Positions 25,451-34,520 of a DNA stretch of 64,000 nucleotides are shown piece after piece (within the stretch, counting starts at the first letter, position 1; each line of letters opens with the position of its first letter). Location of the stretch: IMG/VR virus record IMGVR_UViG_2547132424_000002; one strand, written 5' to 3'. The position numbers and the translations under genes were made by a program. The DNA is from a virus. Taxonomy: Duplodnaviria; Caudoviricetes. The notes beneath the pieces were generated by a model. The model ran no database searches. It was given only the letters and a program-made list of their open reading frames with translations, and was not told where the DNA came from.

Positions 25451-25501
25451 GCATCGACAGACGGATCTGATGGCGACCGAGTATCCCGACTACCGACAGG
25501 A

Positions 25502-25840
25502 GTGGACAGCGTGATCGACGTCGAGGCCGTGATGGCCCTGCATTTCGAACGCCTCAAGGTGCCAGCGGACGCCCTGAACGGCGACAACACCTATCACGTG
25601 CAGATTCATTGGCTGCGCGACATCACGCGCCGCCTCGGAATCATCCTCGAAGACGAGAGCATTCCGGACGAGGTCGCCGAACGCATTGTTCGCGGTGTGC
25701 TCTACGGCGCGCCCACCGACGAAGCGGCCCGGCTCCGTATGCGACAGCAGGACGATCGGATGCGCTGGCTTCGCGAGCACACAACCCTGGGCGCCCCCGT
25801 CGTCGATGACCTGCTCGGGAGAAAGAGCGGGCGAGAGTGA
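25502..25840 (+). CDS. Hypothetical protein
   Basis: High GC3; start uncertain (possible frameshifted 5' end from ATG 25470). Confidence 0.6.
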   Translation: MDSVIDVEAVMALHFERLKVPADALNGDNTYHVQIHWLRDITRRLGIILEDESIPDEVAERIVRGVLYGAPTDEAARLRMRQQDDRMRWLREHTTLGAPVVDDLLGRKSGRE

Positions 25841-26202
25841 GTTCAGCAATCACCGACGCGTTCCTCGCCGAGTACGCGCGCGTCTCACCGGAAGGTCGGC
25901 TCGATGTGATCGGCGGCCACACCACCGGCTGGCACACCAATGCCGGGCCCGGCTTACGGCTGGCGGCGGTCTTGTTCCTCACGCCCGACGCGGTCGCTCG
26001 GTGGCGCAAGCGCAGTGTCCAGCTGCGGACGGTAGTGACCTGCCCGGACGGAACCACCCTCGACCACGCCGATCGGATTGACCGCGGTCACCGGTTCATC
26101 GTGGCCCCGTTCGATCTGAGCCCCGCCCAGCACGGCACGTATATCGTGCGCGTCCAGCTCGCCGACGACACCGTCGATCTGCCGTTGGAGGTCAAGCCGT
26201 GA
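25837..26202 (+). CDS. Hypothetical beta-rich protein (DUF6941-like)
   Basis: A.YA.V...GRLDVIGG...G.Y.V.V.L.....LPLEV. Confidence 0.6.
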   Translation: MSSAITDAFLAEYARVSPEGRLDVIGGHTTGWHTNAGPGLRLAAVLFLTPDAVARWRKRSVQLRTVVTCPDGTTLDHADRIDRGHRFIVAPFDLSPAQHGTYIVRVQLADDTVDLPLEVKP

Positions 26203-26307
26203 GCGTGGCCCCCGGACTGTTTGTCGCGGCCGGAGTCCGGCTGCTCGGCCAGGCCGTGAAACGCCGGTGTGAAATCAGTTCGGGGGCAGCGTCGATGATC
26301 CGCTACA

Positions 26308-26417
26308 GTGTCGGCACTTCCGGTGCGGAGATCCGAGGTTCCTTCACTTTTGGTTGAAACCGACACCTCGGGCACTTATTTCTCGGGAGCACAACTTCAG
26401 AGTGTGGTGATCGCCCG
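26308..26417 (+). ncRNA. Two candidate small stem-loop RNAs (possible further Y-like RNAs)
   Basis: Closing stems GTGTCGG/CCGACAC (26308-14/26360-66) and CGGGC/GCCCG (26369-73/26413-17), each opening with CACTT. Confidence 0.4.
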
Positions 26418-26551
26418 GTGTGTTGGAACTGGGGTTACTTCTTGCAGAGAAACGCGGGTTCGAATCCCGTCGGCGGCGACTGGTGTCGTCGTCGTGGCTG
26501 AGCGGCCTAAGGCACTTCCTCGGACCGTTTTTTCTCGGGCGATTCAGCACC
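26418..26551 (+). ncRNA. yrlA: YrlA-type Y RNA (circularly permuted tRNA mimic)
   Basis: T-arm GCGGG-TTCGAAT-CCCGT (26454-70), 10-bp acceptor-like hairpin (26471-94), then class-II-like D-arm TGGCTGAGCGGCCTAAGGC (26495-513); upstream of a Ro60 gene. Ends approximate. Confidence 0.8.
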
Positions 26552-26554
26552 TCG

Positions 26555-26665
26555 TGTGAGGGCCTGGTGCGTGGGCGGTGGATACTTCCTTGGTTGAAAT
26601 CCCTTCGGGGACTGCGGGTTCGAGCCCCGCGTGTGCCATCGCCGATCTTTCTCAGGCTCTTCACA
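26555..26665 (+). ncRNA. Second Y-like RNA with T-arm
   Basis: Outer stem TGTGA-GGGCCTG/CAGGCTC-T-TCACA; inner stem GGCGGTGG/CCATCGCC; cUUCGg hairpin 26600-11; T-arm GCGGG-TTCGAGC-CCCGC 26614-30. Confidence 0.65.
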
Positions 26666-26706
26666 CCACACTCTGGACACGTGCACCCCCTGACCAAGGG
26701 GACAGC

Positions 26707-28269
26707 ATGTCCAAGTTCAATACCGGCACCACCCGTCCCGTCGCGCACGGGCCGATCCGGACCGACACCACCGCCACCGGCACCACCTTCGAAGGTGCGC
26801 CCGGCTACGCGCGTGACGCGCAGTCTGAACTTTTCCTTCTCGCGGTGACGAACATGGTCGGCGAGGACACCTTCTACGAGCAGGCCAGCGACCGCGACAA
26901 CCGGTTCGCTACCCTCGTCCGCCAGGTCGCGCTCACCGACTTCGACTGGCTCACCCGGTTCGCGCATTGGCTGCGCACCGAGGCCAACATGCGGTCCGCG
27001 CCGATCGTGCTCGCCGCCGAGGCCGCGAAGGCGCGTCTCGATGCAGGGGAATCCGGCGGCCGCGACATCATCAAGACGGTGCTGCAGCGCGCCGACGAGC
27101 CCGGCGAGATGCTGTCCTACTGGCACACCCACTACGGGCGGAAGTTGCCGAAGCCGGTCAAGCGTGGCATCGCCGACGCAGCCCGGCGCCTATACCGCGA
27201 GCGCAGCTACCTCAAGTGGGACAGCGACACCCGCGCCATCCGGTTCGCTGACGTCATCCAGCTGACCCACCCCGATCCGGACGGCGCGCAGGCCATCGAC
27301 GACCTGTACCACTATGTCATCGGCCGCCGGATCGGTGTCGAGCATCTCTCCATCCCGGACACCCTGGCGACCCTGCGCGCCAACGCCGAGTTCAAGCGCC
27401 GCACGGGTGAAGACATCGACCGGATGGCCGCCGACGGCAGCCTGGAGCAGGTGCTCGCCGACGCAGGCATGACGTGGGAGGCACTGTCGGCGTTCGGTGC
27501 CTGGACCGCGGCGCGGTGGGAGGCGATGATCCCGTCCATGGGGTACATGGCTCTCCTGCGAAACTTGCGGAACTTCGACCAGGCAGGTGTGTCCGATGTG
27601 GTCGCGGCGACGGTCGCGGCGCGCCTGTCCGACCCGGACGAGGTGGCGCGGTCGCGGCAGTTGCCGATGCGGTTCCTGTCCGCTTACCGGGCAGCGCCGT
27701 CCCTGCGGTGGTCCTATCCGCTGGAGCAGGCGCTCGACGCATCGCTGGCGAATGTGCCGGAGCTGCAGGGCCGCACGCTGATCATGATCGACACCTCGGG
27801 TTCGATGCGCTCGGCGTTCAGCAAGGACGGAACGCTGATGCGGTGGGATGCCGCGGTGGTGTTCGGGCTGGCTCTCGCCCGCCGCTGCCAGACCGCCGAT
27901 GTGGTGTCGTACTCGAACGACGGGATCCGGTTCCAGCTCGAGCCGGGCGAATCGTTGCTACGTTCGATCGAACGGTGGAAGACCGGCGGCTACTTCATCG
28001 GCGGGGGAACCAACACCGCCGGTGTCACGCAGGCCGCGTACGACCGCCACGACCGCGTCGTCATCCTCACCGACGAGCAGGCGTCTGGGCGCGATCCGGG
28101 CGCGGTCATCCCGAAGACGGTTCCGCTGTACACCTGGAACCTCGCCGGACATCGGCTGGGACACACCGGTGGCGCACCGAACCGGCACGCCTTCGGCGGA
28201 CTGTCAGATGCCGCGTTCAAGATGATCCCCCTCCTCGAGCGGGGCCGTGATGCGGAGTGGCCGTTCTGA
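26707..28269 (+). CDS. rsr: Ro60/Rsr TROVE-domain RNA-binding protein with vWA domain
   Basis: ELF.L.......FYE, R...MRS, RADE..E, LPK.VKRG.ADA, KW, MGYMALLRNLRN, PMRFL.AY, IDTSGSM MIDAS, GGT, ILTDEQ; SD AAGGGG. Confidence 0.95.
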   Translation: MSKFNTGTTRPVAHGPIRTDTTATGTTFEGAPGYARDAQSELFLLAVTNMVGEDTFYEQASDRDNRFATLVRQVALTDFDWLTRFAHWLRTEANMRSAPIVLAAEAAKARLDAGESGGRDIIKTVLQRADEPGEMLSYWHTHYGRKLPKPVKRGIADAARRLYRERSYLKWDSDTRAIRFADVIQLTHPDPDGAQAIDDLYHYVIGRRIGVEHLSIPDTLATLRANAEFKRRTGEDIDRMAADGSLEQVLADAGMTWEALSAFGAWTAARWEAMIPSMGYMALLRNLRNFDQAGVSDVVAATVAARLSDPDEVARSRQLPMRFLSAYRAAPSLRWSYPLEQALDASLANVPELQGRTLIMIDTSGSMRSAFSKDGTLMRWDAAVVFGLALARRCQTADVVSYSNDGIRFQLEPGESLLRSIERWKTGGYFIGGGTNTAGVTQAAYDRHDRVVILTDEQASGRDPGAVIPKTVPLYTWNLAGHRLGHTGGAPNRHAFGGLSDAAFKMIPLLERGRDAEWPF

Positions 28270-29447
28270 TGCCGGTGACACAGTACGGCGAGAAGTTGCT
28301 GTCGTGGGCGGTCGAGTTCGACGGCGCCACGATCGAGCAGGCACGCCAGACCGCGAGTATGCCGTTCGTGGCCCCGCACGTCGCGCTCATGCCCGACGCG
28401 CACAGCGGGCGCGGCGCCGCGGTGGGAACCGTCATCCCCACCGTCGGCGCCGTGATCCCTGCGGCGGTCGGTGTCGATGTCGGCTGCGGGATGGCCGGGG
28501 TCGAGACCCGCTACACCGCAGCCGATATCGCCGGGAAGGACCTCGCGCTGCTGCGGGAGGCAATTGAGAAGGCCATCCCGCTCAGTCCCGGCAACTACAA
28601 CGACCGGATCGGCCGTGACCATACCGCGGAGCGGATCACCGAGTTGGAGGAGCTCGCGGCCCGCAACGGTGTCGAGCTGACGCATTCGCCGAAGTGGCGC
28701 GAGCAGCTCGGATCACTCGGGGGCGGCAATCATTTCATCGAGTTGTGCCTCGACGAACGCGATCACGTCTGGCTGTTCCTGCACTCGGGGTCCCGCGGTG
28801 TCGGGAACAAGATCGCCCAACGGCATATCAAGATCGCGCAGAAGCTGTGCAAGCAGTGGTGGATCGATCTGCCCAGCCCAGACCTCGCGTACCTCGTCGA
28901 GGGCACACCTGAGTTCACCAGCTACATCAAGGAACTCGCGTGGGCCCAGAAGTTCGCCGCCCTCAACCGGGCGGACATGCTCGACCGGTTCGCGACCGAG
29001 TTCGCGCGCTGGCTCGGCACCGACGATCACGGCGAGGTCGACCGCATAATTTCGCACCACAATTACACGCGTCGTGAGCGACACATGGGCCGGGACGTGT
29101 GGCTCACCCGCAAGGGCGCCGTCGACGCGCACGCCGGTGTCCGGTCGATGATCCCGGGCAGCATGGGCACCTCCTCGTTCGTCGTCGAGGGCAAGGGCTG
29201 TGTGCCCGCGCTGTGCTCGGCGCCGCACGGCGCCGGTCGTCGCATGTCGCGCACCGAGGCGAAGAAGCGGTTCACCGCCGAGGACCTCGCGGCGCGGATG
29301 CAGGGCATCGAGTACCGGCATGGTGAGGAATGGGTCGATGAAATCCCCGACGCCTACAAACCGATCACCGAGGTGATGGCCGCTGCGGAGCCGCTGGTTT
29401 CGGTACTGCACCAGCTACGCCAATTGCTAAATGTGAAGGGTACATAG
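28269..29447 (+). CDS. rtcB: RtcB RNA ligase (3'-phosphate/2',3'-cyclic phosphate to 5'-OH)
   Basis: MPDAH, VGVDVGCG, GGGNHFIE, HSGSRG, HHNY, RKGA, IPGSMG, SAPHGAGR, DEIP.AYK all intact; TGATG-coupled to Ro. Confidence 0.96.
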   Translation: MPVTQYGEKLLSWAVEFDGATIEQARQTASMPFVAPHVALMPDAHSGRGAAVGTVIPTVGAVIPAAVGVDVGCGMAGVETRYTAADIAGKDLALLREAIEKAIPLSPGNYNDRIGRDHTAERITELEELAARNGVELTHSPKWREQLGSLGGGNHFIELCLDERDHVWLFLHSGSRGVGNKIAQRHIKIAQKLCKQWWIDLPSPDLAYLVEGTPEFTSYIKELAWAQKFAALNRADMLDRFATEFARWLGTDDHGEVDRIISHHNYTRRERHMGRDVWLTRKGAVDAHAGVRSMIPGSMGTSSFVVEGKGCVPALCSAPHGAGRRMSRTEAKKRFTAEDLAARMQGIEYRHGEEWVDEIPDAYKPITEVMAAAEPLVSVLHQLRQLLNVKGT

Positions 29448-29451
29448 GCGA

Positions 29452-30138
29452 ATGGACACCTTGCTCCTTGAGGGCGTGGTCGGGTCGACCGCCTACGGAC
29501 TCGACCACGCGGACAGCGACACCGACTACGCCGGTATCTACCTCGAGCCCACCGAGCGGCTACTCGGTCTGCATCCGCCGAGCCGGGAGCGCGCGACCCG
29601 TAAGGGCCGTGGCGGGGCGGACGCGACCTATCACGAGCTCGGCAAGTCGATGTCGCTGATGCTGTCGTGCAACCCGACCGCGACGGAGATCTTGTGGCTC
29701 GACAATTACACCCTCACAACCGAATTCGGTGAGGAACTGATCGGGCTGCGGCAGGGTTTCCTGTCCGCGAAACGAGTCCGTGACGCGTTCTTCGGGTACG
29801 CGACCAGCCAGTTCCACCGGTTGATCGACCGCGGCCGTTTCCAGGGGTCGCTGGAGACCCGCAGAGAGAAGCACGCCCGGCACACGATGCGGCTGTTGTG
29901 GCAGGGCTACGAGCTGTACACCACCGGTGTGCTGCCGATCCGGGTGCCGGATCCGGGACCGTATTTCGAGTTCGGCCAACGCATCGTGGGCGATCCCGAG
30001 GCGAAGGCCGCGCAGGAGCTGATCACCCACTACCAGCTGAAGTTCGACGCTGCCCGCACCGTGCTGCCCGATGAGCCGGACGAGGCTCCGCTCGAGGATT
30101 TCCTGCAGCGGGTCCGGAAAGCGAACATGGCCGCATGA
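29452..30138 (+). CDS. RlaP-type (RNA repair pathway Pol-beta family) nucleotidyltransferase
   Basis: GSTAYGL....SDTD, HELGK...L...NPT..E.LW, KHA.H.MRLL..G..L..TG.L. Confidence 0.88.
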   Translation: MDTLLLEGVVGSTAYGLDHADSDTDYAGIYLEPTERLLGLHPPSRERATRKGRGGADATYHELGKSMSLMLSCNPTATEILWLDNYTLTTEFGEELIGLRQGFLSAKRVRDAFFGYATSQFHRLIDRGRFQGSLETRREKHARHTMRLLWQGYELYTTGVLPIRVPDPGPYFEFGQRIVGDPEAKAAQELITHYQLKFDAARTVLPDEPDEAPLEDFLQRVRKANMAA

Positions 30139-30737
30139 CGAACGTCTGGTTCACCTCGGACCTGCACATCGGTCATCGCATGGTCGCCGAACTCCGCGGC
30201 TTCACCGACCCGGCCGACCACGATGACGCTCTGGCCGCGAACTGGGACCGGGTCGTGCGGCCGGATCATCAGGTGTGGGTGCTCGGCGATATCTCGGTGG
30301 GCGGAAAGGCCAACGAGATCCGTGCACTGGAATGGATCGCGGCCCGGCCCGGGACGAAACACCTCGTGGCCGGCAACCACGACTCGTGTCACCCGTACCG
30401 CAGCCAGGCGCACAAATGGCAGCGCATCTACCTCGATGCGGCGTTCGCGTCGGTGCAGCAGTCCGCGGTCCGGAAGATCGCCGGGCAGCGGGTGTTACTG
30501 TCGCACTTCCCGTTCCAGGGCAGCGAGGACGGCGACCACACCGCAGAGAATCGGTTCGAGGAATGGCGGCTCCCCCGCATCGGCGAGAACACGTCACGGT
30601 GGCTCCTGCACGGGCACACGCACTCCCGAGACCCGGGCCACGGCCCGCAGCTGCATGTCGGTCTCGACGCGCATGCTCTCGCACCGGTGCCGCTGGATTG
30701 GGTCGAGTACATGATCGAGAGCGACCCGCCGTTCTGA
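30135..30737 (+). CDS. Calcineurin-like metallophosphoesterase
   Basis: SDLHIGH, VLGD, GNHD, SHFP, LHGHTH. Confidence 0.92.
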   Translation: MTNVWFTSDLHIGHRMVAELRGFTDPADHDDALAANWDRVVRPDHQVWVLGDISVGGKANEIRALEWIAARPGTKHLVAGNHDSCHPYRSQAHKWQRIYLDAAFASVQQSAVRKIAGQRVLLSHFPFQGSEDGDHTAENRFEEWRLPRIGENTSRWLLHGHTHSRDPGHGPQLHVGLDAHALAPVPLDWVEYMIESDPPF

Positions 30738-30740
30738 CCG

Positions 30741-30781
30741 GCTACAGATCACCACAGACGAATACAGATCACTACAGATCC
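30741..30781. repeat. Four tandem 10-bp direct repeats (consensus (A/C)TACAGATCA)
   Basis: gctacagatc accacagacg aatacagatc actacagatc. Confidence 0.8.
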
Positions 30782-30801
30782 CTGGAGAGGGCGAACAGAC
30801 C

Positions 30802-30948
30802 GTGAGTTCAGCACCAGAACGAGATCCGATCGCGGACCTGTTCCGTCGTGGCTTCGAGGCGTACGGCGAGCGTCTCGCCGAGGAGTGCCCAGGCGACCCG
30901 GATGCCGGTTGGGAGCGACTCAGAAAGGACATCGAGGGCGGAGTCTGA
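30802..30948 (+). CDS. Possible small protein (48 aa)
   Basis: GGAGAGG SD, GTG start, open frame to TGA. Confidence 0.35.
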   Translation: MSSAPERDPIADLFRRGFEAYGERLAEECPGDPDAGWERLRKDIEGGV

Positions 30949-31006
30949 TCCGGAGCGCGGTGGGCTCGAGATCCTGTCCCGGATCCCGTAGGGTTTCTTC
31001 TCGGCT

Positions 31007-31022
31007 GGGTTGCACCCTTTTT
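31007..31022 (+). terminator. Weak intrinsic terminator candidate
   Basis: GGGT-TGC-ACCC followed by T5. Confidence 0.3.
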
Positions 31023-31087
31023 CGAGGGAGGGATGAGTGCCGCAACTCGCGTGACCCGGTCGCTGCGCCGCAGTTTCTGCGGTTGCC

Positions 31088-31126
31088 CTAGGGCCGCTGC
31101 TCCATTCCCCCGGAGCGCGGCCCTAG
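31088..31126. other. Long inverted repeat/hairpin upstream of moron
   Basis: CTAGGGCCGC-T-GCTCC / GGAGC-GCGGCCCTAG. Confidence 0.6.
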
Positions 31127-31216
31127 TCGCGTCCCGGGGCCGACCGGCTGGACTAGGGGTAGAAACCGACCGGAACCATTCAACATATGGGCTGGCCTCG
31201 GGTTATCGTGGGCGAC

Positions 31217-32362
31217 ATGGGCGAGCAATACAGCGAGAACGAGGCTTCACCCATGCCTGCCTCGCGCGAGTTCGGGGCGTTCAAATTCGCTGGCGGCCGA
31301 TACGACACCGTAGGCCTGCCGGTTCACGCGATGTCTGAGCTGCAGCGTTACGCCAAGCTCGTCGGCATGGTGGCCCACGCTCTGTATCTGGAGCAGAACA
31401 CCGACCGGCGCCGCGTGCCTCAGGGGTTCTCCGAGGCGCTGGATCTTCGCCTGACGGCTATCCACCCGGGCAGCGTGCAAACGGTGCTGGAATGGACCGG
31501 CTTCGACACTGCCGACCAACCGATCGTCGACGCGCATGAAGACGCCCGCGCACTCGTCGACCGAACTTTCGAGGAACTCGCCCATTCCGGCCAGCTCCCG
31601 AAGGAGTTCCCGCCCAAGGCGCTTGGTGTACTCGGTCAGTTCGGCCGCAGCCTGCGCGATGACGAACGCATCGAGCTCGGCACCTACCGGGATCAGCGTG
31701 CGGTCGTGAACACTCACATCCGTGAGCGGCTGGCGGCGGTAGCGAACTTCGAGACCATCGACGTCGAACGGGTGCTGATCGGCCGTATCACGGGGATCGA
31801 GTCATTGCCTCGACACTCGTTCACCCTGGTACTTGCTGGGCCGGACGCCAAACGCTTGGATTGCGGATTCGCCGACCCGGAGACATTCACGGCGATCGAA
31901 GAATTCGTCGGCTATGCCCGCGATGCGCCGTTGTGTGCGCTCACCGTGCTCGCTGAGCAGCGCACCAGCGGCGAACTCACGGTCACCGATGTCCTCGCGG
32001 TCGAGACCGCACTTCCGCCCGACTGGGTCGCGCGTGTAGCTGCCCTGTCGGAAATCAGAGATGGCTGGCTCAACCCCGAGACTCCACGCCCGACCGTCGA
32101 GTCGATCGATGTTCTCGAGCTGCTACTCGCTCGATGCGTGGAGCACAACATTCCTCGCCCGCTGATGTACCCGTCGGCCGAGGGCGGTGTCCAGCTCGAA
32201 TGGCGGCGTGAAGCGAGTGGCCTGGAGATCGAGATCTACAACGCTCGCACTGTCGACGCTTCCTGGTTCGCGCTCGACAGCGAACGCAGCGAAGACGCAT
32301 CGTTCATGTTCACCGATATCGATCAGATCGTCGAATTCATCGTGGGGAATCTGCATGACTGA
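31217..32362 (+). CDS. Hypothetical protein, moron gene 1
   Basis: 381 aa; C-terminal W...L.EI.DGW...P...MYPSAEGGVQLEW domain. Confidence 0.8.
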   Translation: MGEQYSENEASPMPASREFGAFKFAGGRYDTVGLPVHAMSELQRYAKLVGMVAHALYLEQNTDRRRVPQGFSEALDLRLTAIHPGSVQTVLEWTGFDTADQPIVDAHEDARALVDRTFEELAHSGQLPKEFPPKALGVLGQFGRSLRDDERIELGTYRDQRAVVNTHIRERLAAVANFETIDVERVLIGRITGIESLPRHSFTLVLAGPDAKRLDCGFADPETFTAIEEFVGYARDAPLCALTVLAEQRTSGELTVTDVLAVETALPPDWVARVAALSEIRDGWLNPETPRPTVESIDVLELLLARCVEHNIPRPLMYPSAEGGVQLEWRREASGLEIEIYNARTVDASWFALDSERSEDASFMFTDIDQIVEFIVGNLHD

Positions 32363-32798
32363 GAAGGCAGAGGCCGGTGGCGTCGAAGTAGAACTCGACG
32401 ACGCCAACGAACTGGTCTGGCGCAACGTGAATCCGGGTTTCCTGGACAATGGTGTTCTCTCGTCGCAGGCTTTCCGGCCGACGCCGAAGGACAAGTCGAA
32501 GTTGTCGGGCGCCCGGCAGGCGAAGGTGTCGGCGGAGAAGCACTTTCACGAGTTCACCACCGAGCTCAATCTGTCCTCGGCAGGTGTGTGGGCGGTATCG
32601 GTGGCTGAAGCCAATGCGCAAGACGTGCGCTGCGTGTACGACGCCGAAGCGGCCACCCGGCCGCCGGACCCGTGCCCCGCTGGCCATACATATTTCGACT
32701 TCCAGCCCCACGGCACCGGTGCCCGCAAGCGCATCAGCCGCGTCCTGAGCGACAAGGCCGCCGCGCGCGGCTGTCAGCACTCTCGGCCCGAGGAATAG
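32355..32798 (+). CDS. Hypothetical protein, moron gene 2 (possible ART/RES-like toxin)
   Basis: 147 aa, 8-nt overlap with gene 1; LVWR...SSQAF.P...LS...H pattern. Confidence 0.7.
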   Translation: MTEKAEAGGVEVELDDANELVWRNVNPGFLDNGVLSSQAFRPTPKDKSKLSGARQAKVSAEKHFHEFTTELNLSSAGVWAVSVAEANAQDVRCVYDAEAATRPPDPCPAGHTYFDFQPHGTGARKRISRVLSDKAAARGCQHSRPEE

Positions 32799-34277: not shown

Positions 34278-34520
34278 CCACCGCCGCAGCGGTGTCTGGT
34301 GGTCGGGGAGCTGCGGTAATCCCCGGCCGCCCGAAAATCTCGCGGGCCGGTTGGTCTGCGGGCTGGACAGTAAGACCCGGTGGTCTCCGGGCGGGGGAAC
34401 AGGCGCGAAGAATTGGGCACGAGCCGCCCCCGGTGGCCGCGAGACGAATCACGAGCCCGACGGGCGATGCCGATACCCGTCCAGCACGCAGACGAACCGG
34501 TCCACACCTCCGATCAACCG
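34277..34520. ncRNA. Candidate large structured RNA with possible pseudoknots
   Basis: 22-bp helix 34347-68/34479-500 with two mismatches; crossing 8-bp and 7-bp complementarities. Confidence 0.55.

What the first reader, a model, noticed from the sequence alone, without database searches (positions are those of the whole stretch)
26308..30737. Phage-encoded Ro60 / Y RNA / RtcB / RlaP / phosphoesterase RNA-repair system
Seen: a tRNA-like ncRNA cluster, then four tightly coupled genes with intact motifs (Ro60-vWA, RtcB, Pol-beta RlaP-type nucleotidyltransferase, metallophosphoesterase). Established: Ro with Y RNAs and RtcB are linked in bacterial operons such as Salmonella rsr-yrlBA-rtcBA, which respond to tRNA cleavage; RtcB seals 2',3'-cyclic or 3'-phosphate ends to 5'-OH; Ro and Y RNA have been noted in a few mycobacteriophages. 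Inference: this phage carries a compact, complete bind-heal-seal machine, with no RtcA or RtcR here, aimed at host anticodon nucleases or ribotoxin toxin-antitoxin defences. The Y RNAs could act as Ro adaptors or as decoys. I am not aware of this five-part phage arrangement having been characterised.
Basis: partly seen in the sequence, partly recalled or inferred. Interest (0 to 1): 0.9.

Follow-up and report, generated by a model that had tools for sequence, protein, structure and literature searches.

The report
Prophage Ro60/Y-RNA/RtcB RNA-repair operon
A dormant phage in an actinobacterial chromosome (probably Nocardia-like) carries one tight operon of three Y-type small RNAs, the RNA-binding ring Ro60, the RNA ligase RtcB, an RNA-end-extending enzyme (RlaP) and a phosphoesterase: a rare, compact build of a known kind of RNA-damage repair kit.

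Summary
Window 26308-30737 contains three tandem Y-type RNAs followed by four translationally coupled genes with intact catalytic motifs: Ro60, RtcB, RlaP and a metallophosphoesterase (MPE).

- **Y RNAs.** Unit 2 is a true YrlA RNA with T arm, acceptor-like hairpin and D arm. It scores 103 bits against a covariance model built here, and that model's helices covary strongly across 21 loci. Unit 3 is the same RNA minus the acceptor-like and D arms. Unit 1 keeps only the closing stem.
- **Setting.** The locus lies in an 87.6-kb prophage bounded by a 48-bp repeat at tRNA-Gly.
- **Rarity.** Of about 200 related Ro60, RtcB and RlaP loci, none repeats this gene order. One complete phage has all parts permuted. 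Three have Y-Ro60-RlaP-MPE without RtcB. One provirus has Y-Ro60-RtcB.
- **RlaP-MPE pair.** It recurs in 10 lineage-restricted loci.

All pairwise links are already described: Ro60/Y RNA with RtcB, RlaP with RtcB, and Ro60/Y RNA in phages. This scan noted similar kits in 73 or more other genomes. I therefore class it as a new variant of a known kind, of moderate interest. "Bind-heal-seal" is oversimplified, because RtcB needs no healing and RlaP's 3'-OH product cannot be sealed by RtcB. Function is inferred; no expression data were obtained.

The parts
26304..26309 (+). Candidate -10 box TACAGT ahead of the Y RNA array (putative operon promoter)
   Evidence: Invariant in the three-way alignment with L086 and L087. 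The sigma-70 consensus scan found no promoter, so this rests on conservation only.
26317..26389 (+). Y-like RNA unit 1: closing stem and GGUUcCUUC motif, with no tRNA-like module
   Evidence: nhmmer finds homologues upstream of Ro60 in L086 (47 bits), L087, L074 and L006. RNAalifold gives the same closing stem (CUUCCGG / CUCGGGAG) with 3 of 15 pairs compensatory. It is not significant with model R1 (-1.7 bits). Its own folding z-score is -0.15.
26391..26550 (+). Y RNA unit 2: full YrlA-type Y RNA. Closing stem 26410-26418 / 26534-26543, T arm 26454-26470, acceptor-like hairpin 26471-26494, D arm about 26495-26513.
   Evidence: Model R1 gives 102.9 bits, E 1e-27. In the 21-sequence alignment, 21 of 30 pairs show compensatory changes, including the closing, V, acceptor-like and D stems. 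Homologous RNAs lie upstream of Ro60 on the same strand in 79 of 80 genome loci and about 51 of 54 viral loci.
26554..26666 (+). Y RNA unit 3: YrlA derivative with closing stem and T arm (26614-26630) but no acceptor-like or D arm (YrlB-like)
   Evidence: R1 with filters off gives 28 bits, E 7e-9, aligned end to end with the 37 acceptor-like and D-arm positions deleted. In L086 and L087 the homologous unit still has those arms. The fold is shown.
26707..28269 (+). Ro60 / Rsr (TROVE + vWA with MIDAS), 520 aa
   Evidence: The start ATG and its AAGGGGA ribosome-binding site are conserved with L086 and L087. TROVE 60.5 bits. phrog_850 191 bits. Matches PDB 9KOP/9L5Y at E 8e-30. DTSGS MIDAS motif. 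44-47% identical to annotated actinophage Ro-like proteins.
28257..29447 (+). RtcB 3'-phosphate/5'-OH RNA ligase. The likely true start is the ATG at 28269, in a TGATG overlap with the Ro60 stop.
   Evidence: PF01139 at 372.9 bits over the full length. phrog_1075 at 501 bits. Metal-binding and GMP-histidine positions are conserved against TTHA1785. Junction sequence. 87% identical to L140, 65% to Mycobacterium phage Chris gp86, and 45% to the host's own RtcB.
29452..30138 (+). RlaP (PF10127) Pol-beta-type RNA 3'-end nucleotidyltransferase, 228 aa
   Evidence: PF10127 at 84.2 bits. phrog_388 at 121 bits. GS...DSDTD motif. The family adds 1-2 NMPs to an RNA 3'-OH in vitro (preprint).
30135..30737 (+). 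Calcineurin-type binuclear metallophosphoesterase (MPE), 200 aa, translationally coupled to RlaP by an ATGA overlap
   Evidence: Metallophos_2 at 28.4 bits. phrog_547 at 171 bits. Motifs DxH, GD, GNHD, H and GHxH are invariant in 46 homologues. AF2 pLDDT 95.3. The only close solved fold is the uncharacterised Aquifex 1XM7 (TM 0.72-0.77). RlaP lies immediately upstream in all 7 close homologues looked up.

Best explanation
This is a prophage-borne RNA-damage-response operon. It is assembled from three modules that recur separately in Nocardia-type actinophages: [Y RNA array + Ro60], [RtcB] and [RlaP + MPE].

**Proposed mechanism.**
1. One transcript starts just upstream of 26310.
2. Its 5' leader is processed into three Y RNAs that share a Ro60-binding bulged stem but differ in their distal module: none, a full tRNA-like T/acceptor/D module, or a T arm only.
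3. The Y RNAs load onto the Ro60 ring and gate or tether it.
4. RtcB reseals tRNA or rRNA breaks that carry 2',3'-cyclic-P or 3'-P and 5'-OH ends. Such ends are made by metal-independent ribotoxins (MazF-type toxins, PrrC/RloC-type anticodon nucleases).
5. RlaP and the MPE form a 3'-end remodelling pair for ends that lost nucleotides. The MPE removes the terminal phosphate to give a 3'-OH, and RlaP adds back 1-2 nucleotides.

The most likely biological role is counter-defence during lytic growth, keeping the translation apparatus working when the host fires RNA-cleaving abortive-infection or toxin-antitoxin nucleases.

**Shown:** the identities, motifs, coupling, Y RNA structure, prophage setting and comparative distribution.

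**Inferred:** co-transcription, Ro60-Y RNA binding, MPE substrate, timing of expression and the targets.
For: - **Identities and intact active sites:**
- **Translational coupling:**
- **YrlA identity with covariation, and near-universal Y RNA arrays upstream of Ro60:**
- **Precedent for processing:** M. smegmatis YrlA and YrlB are processed from one precursor upstream of rsr, and its YrlB carries only a T arm. That matches units 2 and 3 here.
- **Modules recur in other combinations:**
  - L140, a complete 90.5-kb phage, has RlaP-MPE, three small ORFs, then YrlA-Ro60-RtcB.
  - L204, a provirus, has two YrlA copies, a Ro60 of another subtype, and RtcB with overlapping stop and start.
  - L236 and L240 have YrlA-Ro60-RlaP-MPE. 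L238 has YrlA-Ro60-RlaP-HNH-MPE.
  - L088 has YrlA-Ro60-RlaP.
- **RlaP-MPE adjacency** holds in 7 of 7 look-ups, plus the window, the host chromosome and L140.
- **Conflict context:** the chromosomal copy sits between a HIT protein and an Imm49 immunity protein.
- **Published links:** RlaP adds 1-2 NMPs to damaged RNA 3'-OH ends. The Salmonella rsr-yrlBA-rtcBA operon responds to tRNA halves with cyclic-phosphate ends.
- **Possible sources of RtcB-type ends:** the host encodes two MazF/PemK toxins.
- **Prophage borders:**
Against: - No expression or binding data exist for this locus.
- **RlaP and RtcB are chemically incompatible.** RlaP's 3'-OH product is not an RtcB substrate. The genome has no Rnl2-type ligase and no RtcA, so RlaP-MPE may act in a separate pathway.
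- **The MPE's role is uncertain.**
  - Its family occurs in 626 phage records, most without RNA-repair genes, for example D29 gp66.
  - Its only close solved structure is uncharacterised.
  - In a 401-genome class sample, RlaP and this MPE type were never adjacent outside this genome.
- **Ro60 does not depend on RtcB.** The closest Ro60 relatives (L086 at 88%, L087 at 70%) come from phages with no RtcB or RlaP at all.
- **The Ro60-binding motif is degenerate.** Unit 2's Ro motif reads UGUU where the family consensus is CGAA.
Confidence: 0.55

Rival explanations
1. Mosaic of independent RNA-metabolism genes. Ro60 with its Y RNAs acts on its own, for example by recruiting host PNPase for structured-RNA decay (RYPER-like), as proposed for Deinococcus and for Thermus phage phiLo. 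RtcB, RlaP and the MPE are separate accessory genes that landed in the same variable slot of the phage genome.
For: - The closest Ro60/Y RNA phages have no RtcB or RlaP.
- Of 134 Ro60 loci, none has this order.
- In L087 a conserved element at window 34344-34502 lies only about 0.8 kb after Ro60. This shows that about 6 kb, including the repair genes and the PDC-M32 cassette, sits in a variable slot.
- phiLo Ro60 assembles with host PNPase in vitro.
- The MPE family is common without any repair genes nearby.
Against: - Stop and start codons overlap at the Ro60-RtcB and RlaP-MPE junctions.
- Ro60 is directly joined to RtcB or to RlaP-MPE in six other independent viral loci, with two different Ro60 subtypes.
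- The same associations occur in cellular operons.
Confidence: 0.2
2. Lysogenic-conversion module. The operon is expressed from the resident prophage and raises the host's own tolerance to RNA damage (stationary phase, UV or DNA damage, ribosome-targeting antibiotics, toxins from competitors), rather than serving lytic growth.
For: - It has a candidate promoter of its own, conserved with L086 and L087.
- It lies next to a candidate defence cassette, PDC-M32, typical of prophage accessory genes.
- The host keeps separate, diverged copies of Ro60/YrlA, RtcB and RlaP-MPE, so a second set could add dosage.
- Bacterial Ro60 and Rtc systems are stress-induced.
Against: - The operon has the same orientation and codon usage as the flanking lytic-cycle gene array.
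- Related modules sit in complete phage genomes with terminal repeats.
- No expression data are available.
Confidence: 0.15
3. Decoy model. The tRNA-like Y RNAs mainly act as competitive inhibitors or sponges of tRNA-directed nucleases or tRNA-modifying toxins, and Ro60 stabilises them.
For: - Units 2 and 3 carry canonical T arms, and unit 2 a D arm.
- Hughes et al. raise this possibility for Salmonella YrlA, which their anticodon nuclease does not cleave.
Against: - YrlA has no anticodon stem-loop. That position is taken by the Ro60-binding stem.
- ARAGORN sees no tRNA.
- Unit 1 has no tRNA-like part at all.
- The array architecture is the family norm in non-phage chromosomes too.
Confidence: 0.1

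Closest known systems
Salmonella Typhimurium rsr-yrlBA-rtcBA operon (Chen 2013/2014; Hughes 2020, PMC7790460)
   Same: Ro60 orthologue, tandem YrlA/YrlB-type Y RNAs and RtcB lie in one co-oriented unit. The YrlA fold has the same T, acceptor-like and D arm order.
   Different: Here the RNAs precede Ro60. There is no RtcA in the whole genome, and no RtcR was seen in the window (RtcR was not searched genome-wide). RlaP and an MPE stand where rtcA would be. The element is an 87.6-kb prophage.
Mycobacterium smegmatis rsr locus with YrlA and YrlB (Chen 2014, PMC4201824)
   Same: The Y RNAs lie 5' of rsr on one precursor. YrlA has the full tRNA-like module and YrlB only a T arm, like units 2 and 3 here.
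   Different: No RtcB, RlaP or MPE is attached there. The window has a third, minimal unit. The acceptor-like stem here is 10 bp, against 7 bp.
Pseudomonas rtcB-rlaP-rtcA operons under RtcR (Carruthers et al. preprint 10.64898/2025.12.29.696909)
   Same: RlaP lies directly downstream of RtcB.
   Different: Those operons have RtcA and RtcR and lack Ro60 and Y RNAs. Here an MPE follows RlaP instead of RtcA.
Phage Ro60 with Y-like RNAs: mycobacteriophages, CcrColossus, Bacillus phage G, Thermus phage phiLo (PMC4201824, PMC12135203)
   Same: A phage-encoded Ro60 is preceded by Y-like RNAs. The protein matches phiLo Ro60 at E 8e-30.
   Different: In those phages the repair enzymes are not fused into the same operon. 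phiLo Ro60 is proposed to hijack PNPase.
Phage RNA-repair kits (T4 Pnkp/Rnl1; jumbo-phage RtcB/Rnl/RlaP/TROVE sets, PMC7824862)
   Same: The logic is the same: phage-encoded ligase plus end-processing enzymes against host ribotoxins.
   Different: Those are usually dispersed genes with ATP-dependent ligases and kinase-phosphatases. Here one RtcB-based operon sits in a temperate siphovirus-type prophage.

Membership tests
YrlA-type bacterial Y RNA | Encoded next to Ro60 on the same strand | tested here: met
   All three units lie 40-400 nt upstream of Ro60 on the + strand. The same holds in 79 of 80 genome loci and about 51 of 54 viral loci.
YrlA-type bacterial Y RNA | tRNA-like domain in the order T arm, acceptor-like hairpin, D arm, closed by a long-range stem | tested here: met
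   Unit 2 scores 102.9 bits, and 21 of 30 pairs are compensatory in 21 sequences. Unit 3 has only the T arm and unit 1 has none, so units 1 and 3 are Y-like, not YrlA proper.
YrlA-type bacterial Y RNA | 5' GNCGAAN0-1G motif thought to contact Ro60 (Chen 2014) | tested here: inconclusive
   The family consensus here is CCCGGUGCGAAGG. The window's unit 2 reads CCCGGUGUGUUGG, unit 1 CCGGUGCGGAG and unit 3 CCUGGUGCGUGGG. The position is conserved but the CGAA core is degenerate.
YrlA-type bacterial Y RNA | Bound by Ro60 in vivo; carries tRNA-type modifications | not testable with these tools
   Needs RIP/Northern blotting and modification mapping.
Ro60 / Rsr | TROVE (HEAT-repeat ring) domain | tested here: met
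   PF05731 at 60.5 bits against a cut-off of 23. Matches PDB 9KOP at E 8e-30.
Ro60 / Rsr | C-terminal vWA domain with MIDAS | tested here: inconclusive
   VWA_2 (21.2 bits) and vWA_Ro60 (17 bits) are both below the Pfam cut-offs. The DxSxS motif (DTSGS) and later T and D positions are visible in the sequence.
RtcB RNA ligase | Full-length RtcB fold with metal ligands (Asp, Cys, three His) and the GMP-accepting His in HGAGR | tested here: met
   PF01139 at 372.9 bits, covering profile positions 1-426. The residues align with TTHA1785.
RtcB RNA ligase | GTP/Mn-dependent joining of 3'-P or 2',3'-cyclic-P ends to 5'-OH ends | not testable with these tools
   Needs a biochemical assay.
RlaP (PF10127) | Pol-beta NTase core (GS, DxD) and a family HMM match | tested here: met
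   84.2 bits against a cut-off of 23. GS...DSDTD motif.
RlaP (PF10127) | Gene neighbourhood with an RNA ligase | tested here: met
   It lies directly downstream of RtcB with a 4-nt gap.
Calcineurin-like metallophosphoesterase | Five motifs: DxH, GD, GNH(D/E), H, GHxH | tested here: met
   All are present and invariant in 46 homologues. Fold model pLDDT 95, matching 1XM7.
Pnkp-type RNA 3'-end-healing phosphatase (e.g. Clostridium thermocellum Pnkp) | MPE domain fused to or paired with a 5'-kinase and an ATP-dependent ligase; shown 2',3'-cyclic phosphodiesterase / 3'-phosphatase activity | tested here: not met
   There is no kinase domain or neighbouring kinase, and no Rnl2-type ligase in the genome. 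The only lead is structural: Atlas neighbours include viral AAA_33 + MPE fusions (TM 0.77). Activity is untested.
RtcR-regulated rtcBA operon | RtcA cyclase | tested here: not met
   PF01137 has no match in the whole 8.35-Mb genome, while the control genomes do match.
RtcR-regulated rtcBA operon | Divergent RtcR (CARF + sigma-54 activator) | not tested
   The flanking ORFs have no Pfam hit. No genome-wide RtcR search was run.

The most novel reading that the evidence does not exclude
RlaP and the MPE form an obligate two-enzyme 3'-end rebuilding unit that Ro60/Y RNA presents with damaged tRNA. The MPE would supply the chemistry that the RlaP literature says is missing. It either makes the 3'-OH that RlaP needs, or trims an over-extended end back to a 3'-phosphate so that RtcB can seal it. 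This would let the phage reverse 'smart' ribotoxins that excise nucleotides (RloC-type). The Y-Ro60-RlaP-MPE cassette, with or without its own RtcB, would then be a distinct actinophage counter-defence system.
Probability: 0.15. Interest if true: 0.7.

Novelty: new variant of a known kind. Interest (0 to 1): 0.45.

Why it matters
Each pairwise link in Ro60/Y RNA-RtcB-RlaP systems is known, but nobody has shown what Ro60 and the Y RNAs contribute to repair. It is also unresolved how RlaP's 3'-OH product is reconciled with RtcB's need for a 3'-phosphate.

This locus puts all the players into about 4.4 kb of a temperate phage of a culturable actinobacterium. It has natural "deletion series" relatives: Y-Ro60 only, plus RlaP, plus RlaP-MPE, plus RtcB. 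It also points to a tightly conserved RlaP-MPE pair as the next enzyme couple to test.

That makes it a convenient genetic and biochemical model. It does not reveal a new principle.

Tried and rejected
- **ARAGORN** found no tRNA or tmRNA in the window.
- **Rfam** gave nothing at gathering thresholds. In the permissive scan of 25500-31500 only chance-level hits appeared, all outside the RNA array. Rfam gave no help for YrlA, so I built my own model.
- **The sigma-70 consensus scan** found no promoter and no convincing terminator.
- **Megablast against deposited phages** found no close relative. The only hits were RtcB at 73% to Mycobacterium phage Chris and a short Ro60 stretch to Gordonia phage VanLee.
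- **Burroughs and Aravind 2016** (PMC5062991) is not held in the library. What I say about it rests on citing papers and on my own recollection.
- **AF2 from the single MPE sequence** gave an unusable model (pLDDT 38). It was redone with an alignment.
- **The PDB fold search for the MPE** gave only the uncharacterised aq_1665 as a close match. All other hits (LpxH, Mre11, lambda phosphatase and others) were generic MPE folds, so no substrate could be inferred.
- **The class-wide sample** was used to test RlaP-MPE adjacency. No adjacency was found outside this genome, so the pair is lineage-restricted, not general. Those tallies include unpublished genomes G247 and G496.
- **Considered and dropped:**
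  - that the 26578 GTG ORF is the Ro60 start; it overlaps unit 3, and the conserved ATG is at 26707;
  - that unit 3 is a full cloverleaf tRNA; it aligns to YrlA with the acceptor-like and D arms deleted;
  - a complex-prediction job, because I make no binding claim between the proteins.

Full report
**What is there**

The window is 66% G+C. It is part of a single-contig 8.35-Mb chromosome (G000:C1:6500258-6564257). All well-supported genes in it run on the + strand, and it ends in terminase, portal and tape-measure genes. The terminase resembles that of cluster-F-like mycobacteriophages.

A perfect 48-bp direct repeat lies at genome 6489974-6490021 and 6577547-6577594. The second copy overlaps the 3' end of a tRNA-Gly(TCC) gene, and an integrase-sized ORF sits just inside the first copy. 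Together these bound an 87.6-kb prophage. The finding lies in the middle of it. "Phage-encoded" therefore means prophage-encoded. The closest homologues of the phosphoesterase come mainly from Nocardia, which suggests the host.

**The RNAs**

ARAGORN and Rfam see nothing. However, the 400 nt before Ro60 align with the equivalent stretch of two viral contigs, L086 and L087, at about 80% column identity. That alignment shows three repeated units, each framed by the same 5' CCGGUGCG...GGUUACUUC and 3' UUCUCGGG strands.

- **Unit 2.** nhmmer with unit 2 found homologues upstream of Ro60 in 22 loci.
  - A 21-sequence alignment gave a consensus with a long-range closing stem, a variable hairpin, a GGUUCGAAUCC T arm, a 7-bp acceptor-like hairpin and an AGCGGCCUA D arm.
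  - 21 of the 30 pairs show compensatory changes.
  - This is the published YrlA architecture.
  - The covariance model built from the alignment (R1) scores window 26391-26550 at 102.9 bits.
  - R1 finds one to four copies on the Ro60 strand in 79 of 80 genome loci and about 51 of 54 viral loci. Tandem arrays are therefore the norm.
- **Unit 3.** With filters off, unit 3 (26559-26665) aligns end to end with exactly the acceptor-like and D-arm positions missing (28 bits, E 7e-9). L086 and L087 still have those arms.
- **Unit 1.** Unit 1 keeps only the closing stem. It is conserved in four other loci but is not statistically supported as a structure on its own.

A full YrlA followed by a T-arm-only RNA, both 5' of rsr on one precursor, is what was shown experimentally in M. 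smegmatis.

**The proteins**

- **Ro60** starts at the conserved ATG at 26707, not at 26578. It has a TROVE domain and a MIDAS motif and matches phiLo Ro60.
- **RtcB** is full length with all catalytic residues. Its probable ATG at 28269 overlaps the Ro60 stop as TGATG.
- **RlaP** follows after 4 nt, and the MPE overlaps it by ATGA.
- **The MPE** has all five signature motifs and a confident model. It has no characterised close relative. Viral proteins that fuse a PNK-like AAA_33 domain to a similar MPE are a structural lead only.

**How common is the arrangement**

I fetched 134 Ro60 loci, 73 RtcB loci and 8 RlaP loci, five RlaP loci from related genomes, and seven contigs that encode close MPE homologues. 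None repeats Y-Ro60-RtcB-RlaP-MPE. The modules recur in other combinations:

| Locus | Arrangement |
|---|---|
| L140 (complete phage with terminal repeats) | RlaP-MPE, three small ORFs, YrlA-Ro60-RtcB |
| L204 (provirus) | YrlA x2-Ro60-RtcB, with a different Ro60 subtype |
| L236, L240 | YrlA-Ro60-RlaP-MPE |
| L238 | The same, with an HNH homing endonuclease inserted between RlaP and MPE |
| L088 | YrlA-Ro60-RlaP |
| L086, L087 (phages with the closest Ro60) | No RtcB or RlaP at all |

RlaP-MPE is adjacent, usually with a 4-nt overlap, in all seven look-ups, in L140, and in a second, chromosomal copy in this same genome. That copy is flanked by a HIT protein and an Imm49 immunity protein. Some of the other RlaP-MPE pairs also sit in ordinary chromosomal neighbourhoods.

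In a 401-genome class sample the two genes were never adjacent elsewhere, so the pair is lineage-restricted (these tallies include the unpublished genomes G247 and G496).

The host also has its own Ro60 with two YrlA RNAs (58% identity) and its own RtcB (45% identity), each standing alone.

**Mechanism**

The best reading is a three-module RNA-damage operon used by the phage.

- RtcB can directly reseal breaks left by metal-independent nucleases. The host has two MazF-family toxins.
- RlaP adds one or two nucleotides to damaged 3'-OH ends.
- The MPE is the obvious candidate to expose that 3'-OH.
- Ro60/Y RNA may present or sort substrates. It could equally work with PNPase in decay.

RtcB cannot seal RlaP's product, and the genome has neither RtcA nor an Rnl2-type ligase. 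The order of reactions therefore remains open, and the MPE could be the missing link. That is the novel case, and I give it a low probability.

**Comparison and novelty**

The following are all published:
- Ro60/Y RNA next to RtcB (Salmonella);
- RlaP in RtcB operons (Pseudomonas);
- Ro60 with Y RNAs in phages;
- RtcB, RlaP and TROVE proteins in phage repair kits;
- the YrlA-as-decoy idea.

This scan has noted comparable kits in at least 73 other genomes. What is new here is the compact five-part build in a temperate actinophage, the Y-Ro60-RlaP-MPE cassette family, and the conserved RlaP-MPE pair. I class it as a new variant of a known kind, with interest 0.45.

Noticed in passing
window 31187-32362 and 32355-32798 (+): The two overlapping genes just downstream match the PADLOC candidate defence system PDC-M32 (A: 500 bits, B: 129 bits). 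They have no Pfam family. This is a prophage accessory defence cassette next to the repair operon.
   Followed up: partly
window 30742-30782: Four copies of (T/C)ACAGA(T/C), phased every 10 bp, lie directly after the MPE stop. TACAG[AT] occurs only 5 times on the + strand of the 64-kb window. Four of these flank the operon, the other being the candidate -10 at 26304. This may be a regulator-binding array or a promoter cluster.
   Followed up: partly
window 34344-34502 versus L087:7409-7563: A 159-nt intergenic element is 87% identical to a stretch lying only about 0.8 kb downstream of Ro60 in the provirus L087. In the window about 6 kb is inserted between them (RtcB, RlaP, MPE, PDC-M32 and other genes), which marks a variable slot.
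   Followed up: partly
G000:C1:4444253-4446790 (outside the window; L229:7254-9791): A chromosomal HIT-domain gene, RlaP (58% identity), MPE (70% identity) and an Imm49 immunity-protein gene lie in a row among metabolic genes. This is a second RlaP-MPE pair, in a toxin-conflict context.
   Followed up: partly
G000:C1:7063180-7065314 (outside the window; L225/L221): The host has its own Ro60 (58% identical) preceded by two YrlA-type RNAs (108.7 and 41.1 bits). The genome therefore carries two Ro60/Y RNA systems.
   Followed up: partly
G000:C1:6489974-6490021 and 6577547-6577594 (window -10283 and 77290): A perfect 48-bp direct repeat marks attL and attR of an 87.6-kb prophage integrated into the 3' end of tRNA-Gly(TCC). 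An integrase-sized ORF lies at 6490222-6491565.
   Followed up: yes
window 26390-26402 and 26546-26552; alignment A2 columns 1-16: A conserved ACAACUUCAGAG-like spacer precedes the closing stem of YrlA units in many loci. It may be a processing site between tandem Y RNAs.
   Followed up: no
L238:3195-3797: An HNH/NUMOD4 homing endonuclease gene is inserted exactly between RlaP and the MPE in one Ro60-RlaP-MPE cassette.
   Followed up: no
alignment A1 / L086:4825-4993 and L087:4807-4990: In the two closest relatives the third RNA unit is a second complete YrlA, with a D arm of the GUAGCUCAG...GGUAGAGCA type. The window's copy has lost about 35 nt, showing recent turnover of the distal modules of Y RNAs.
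   Followed up: partly
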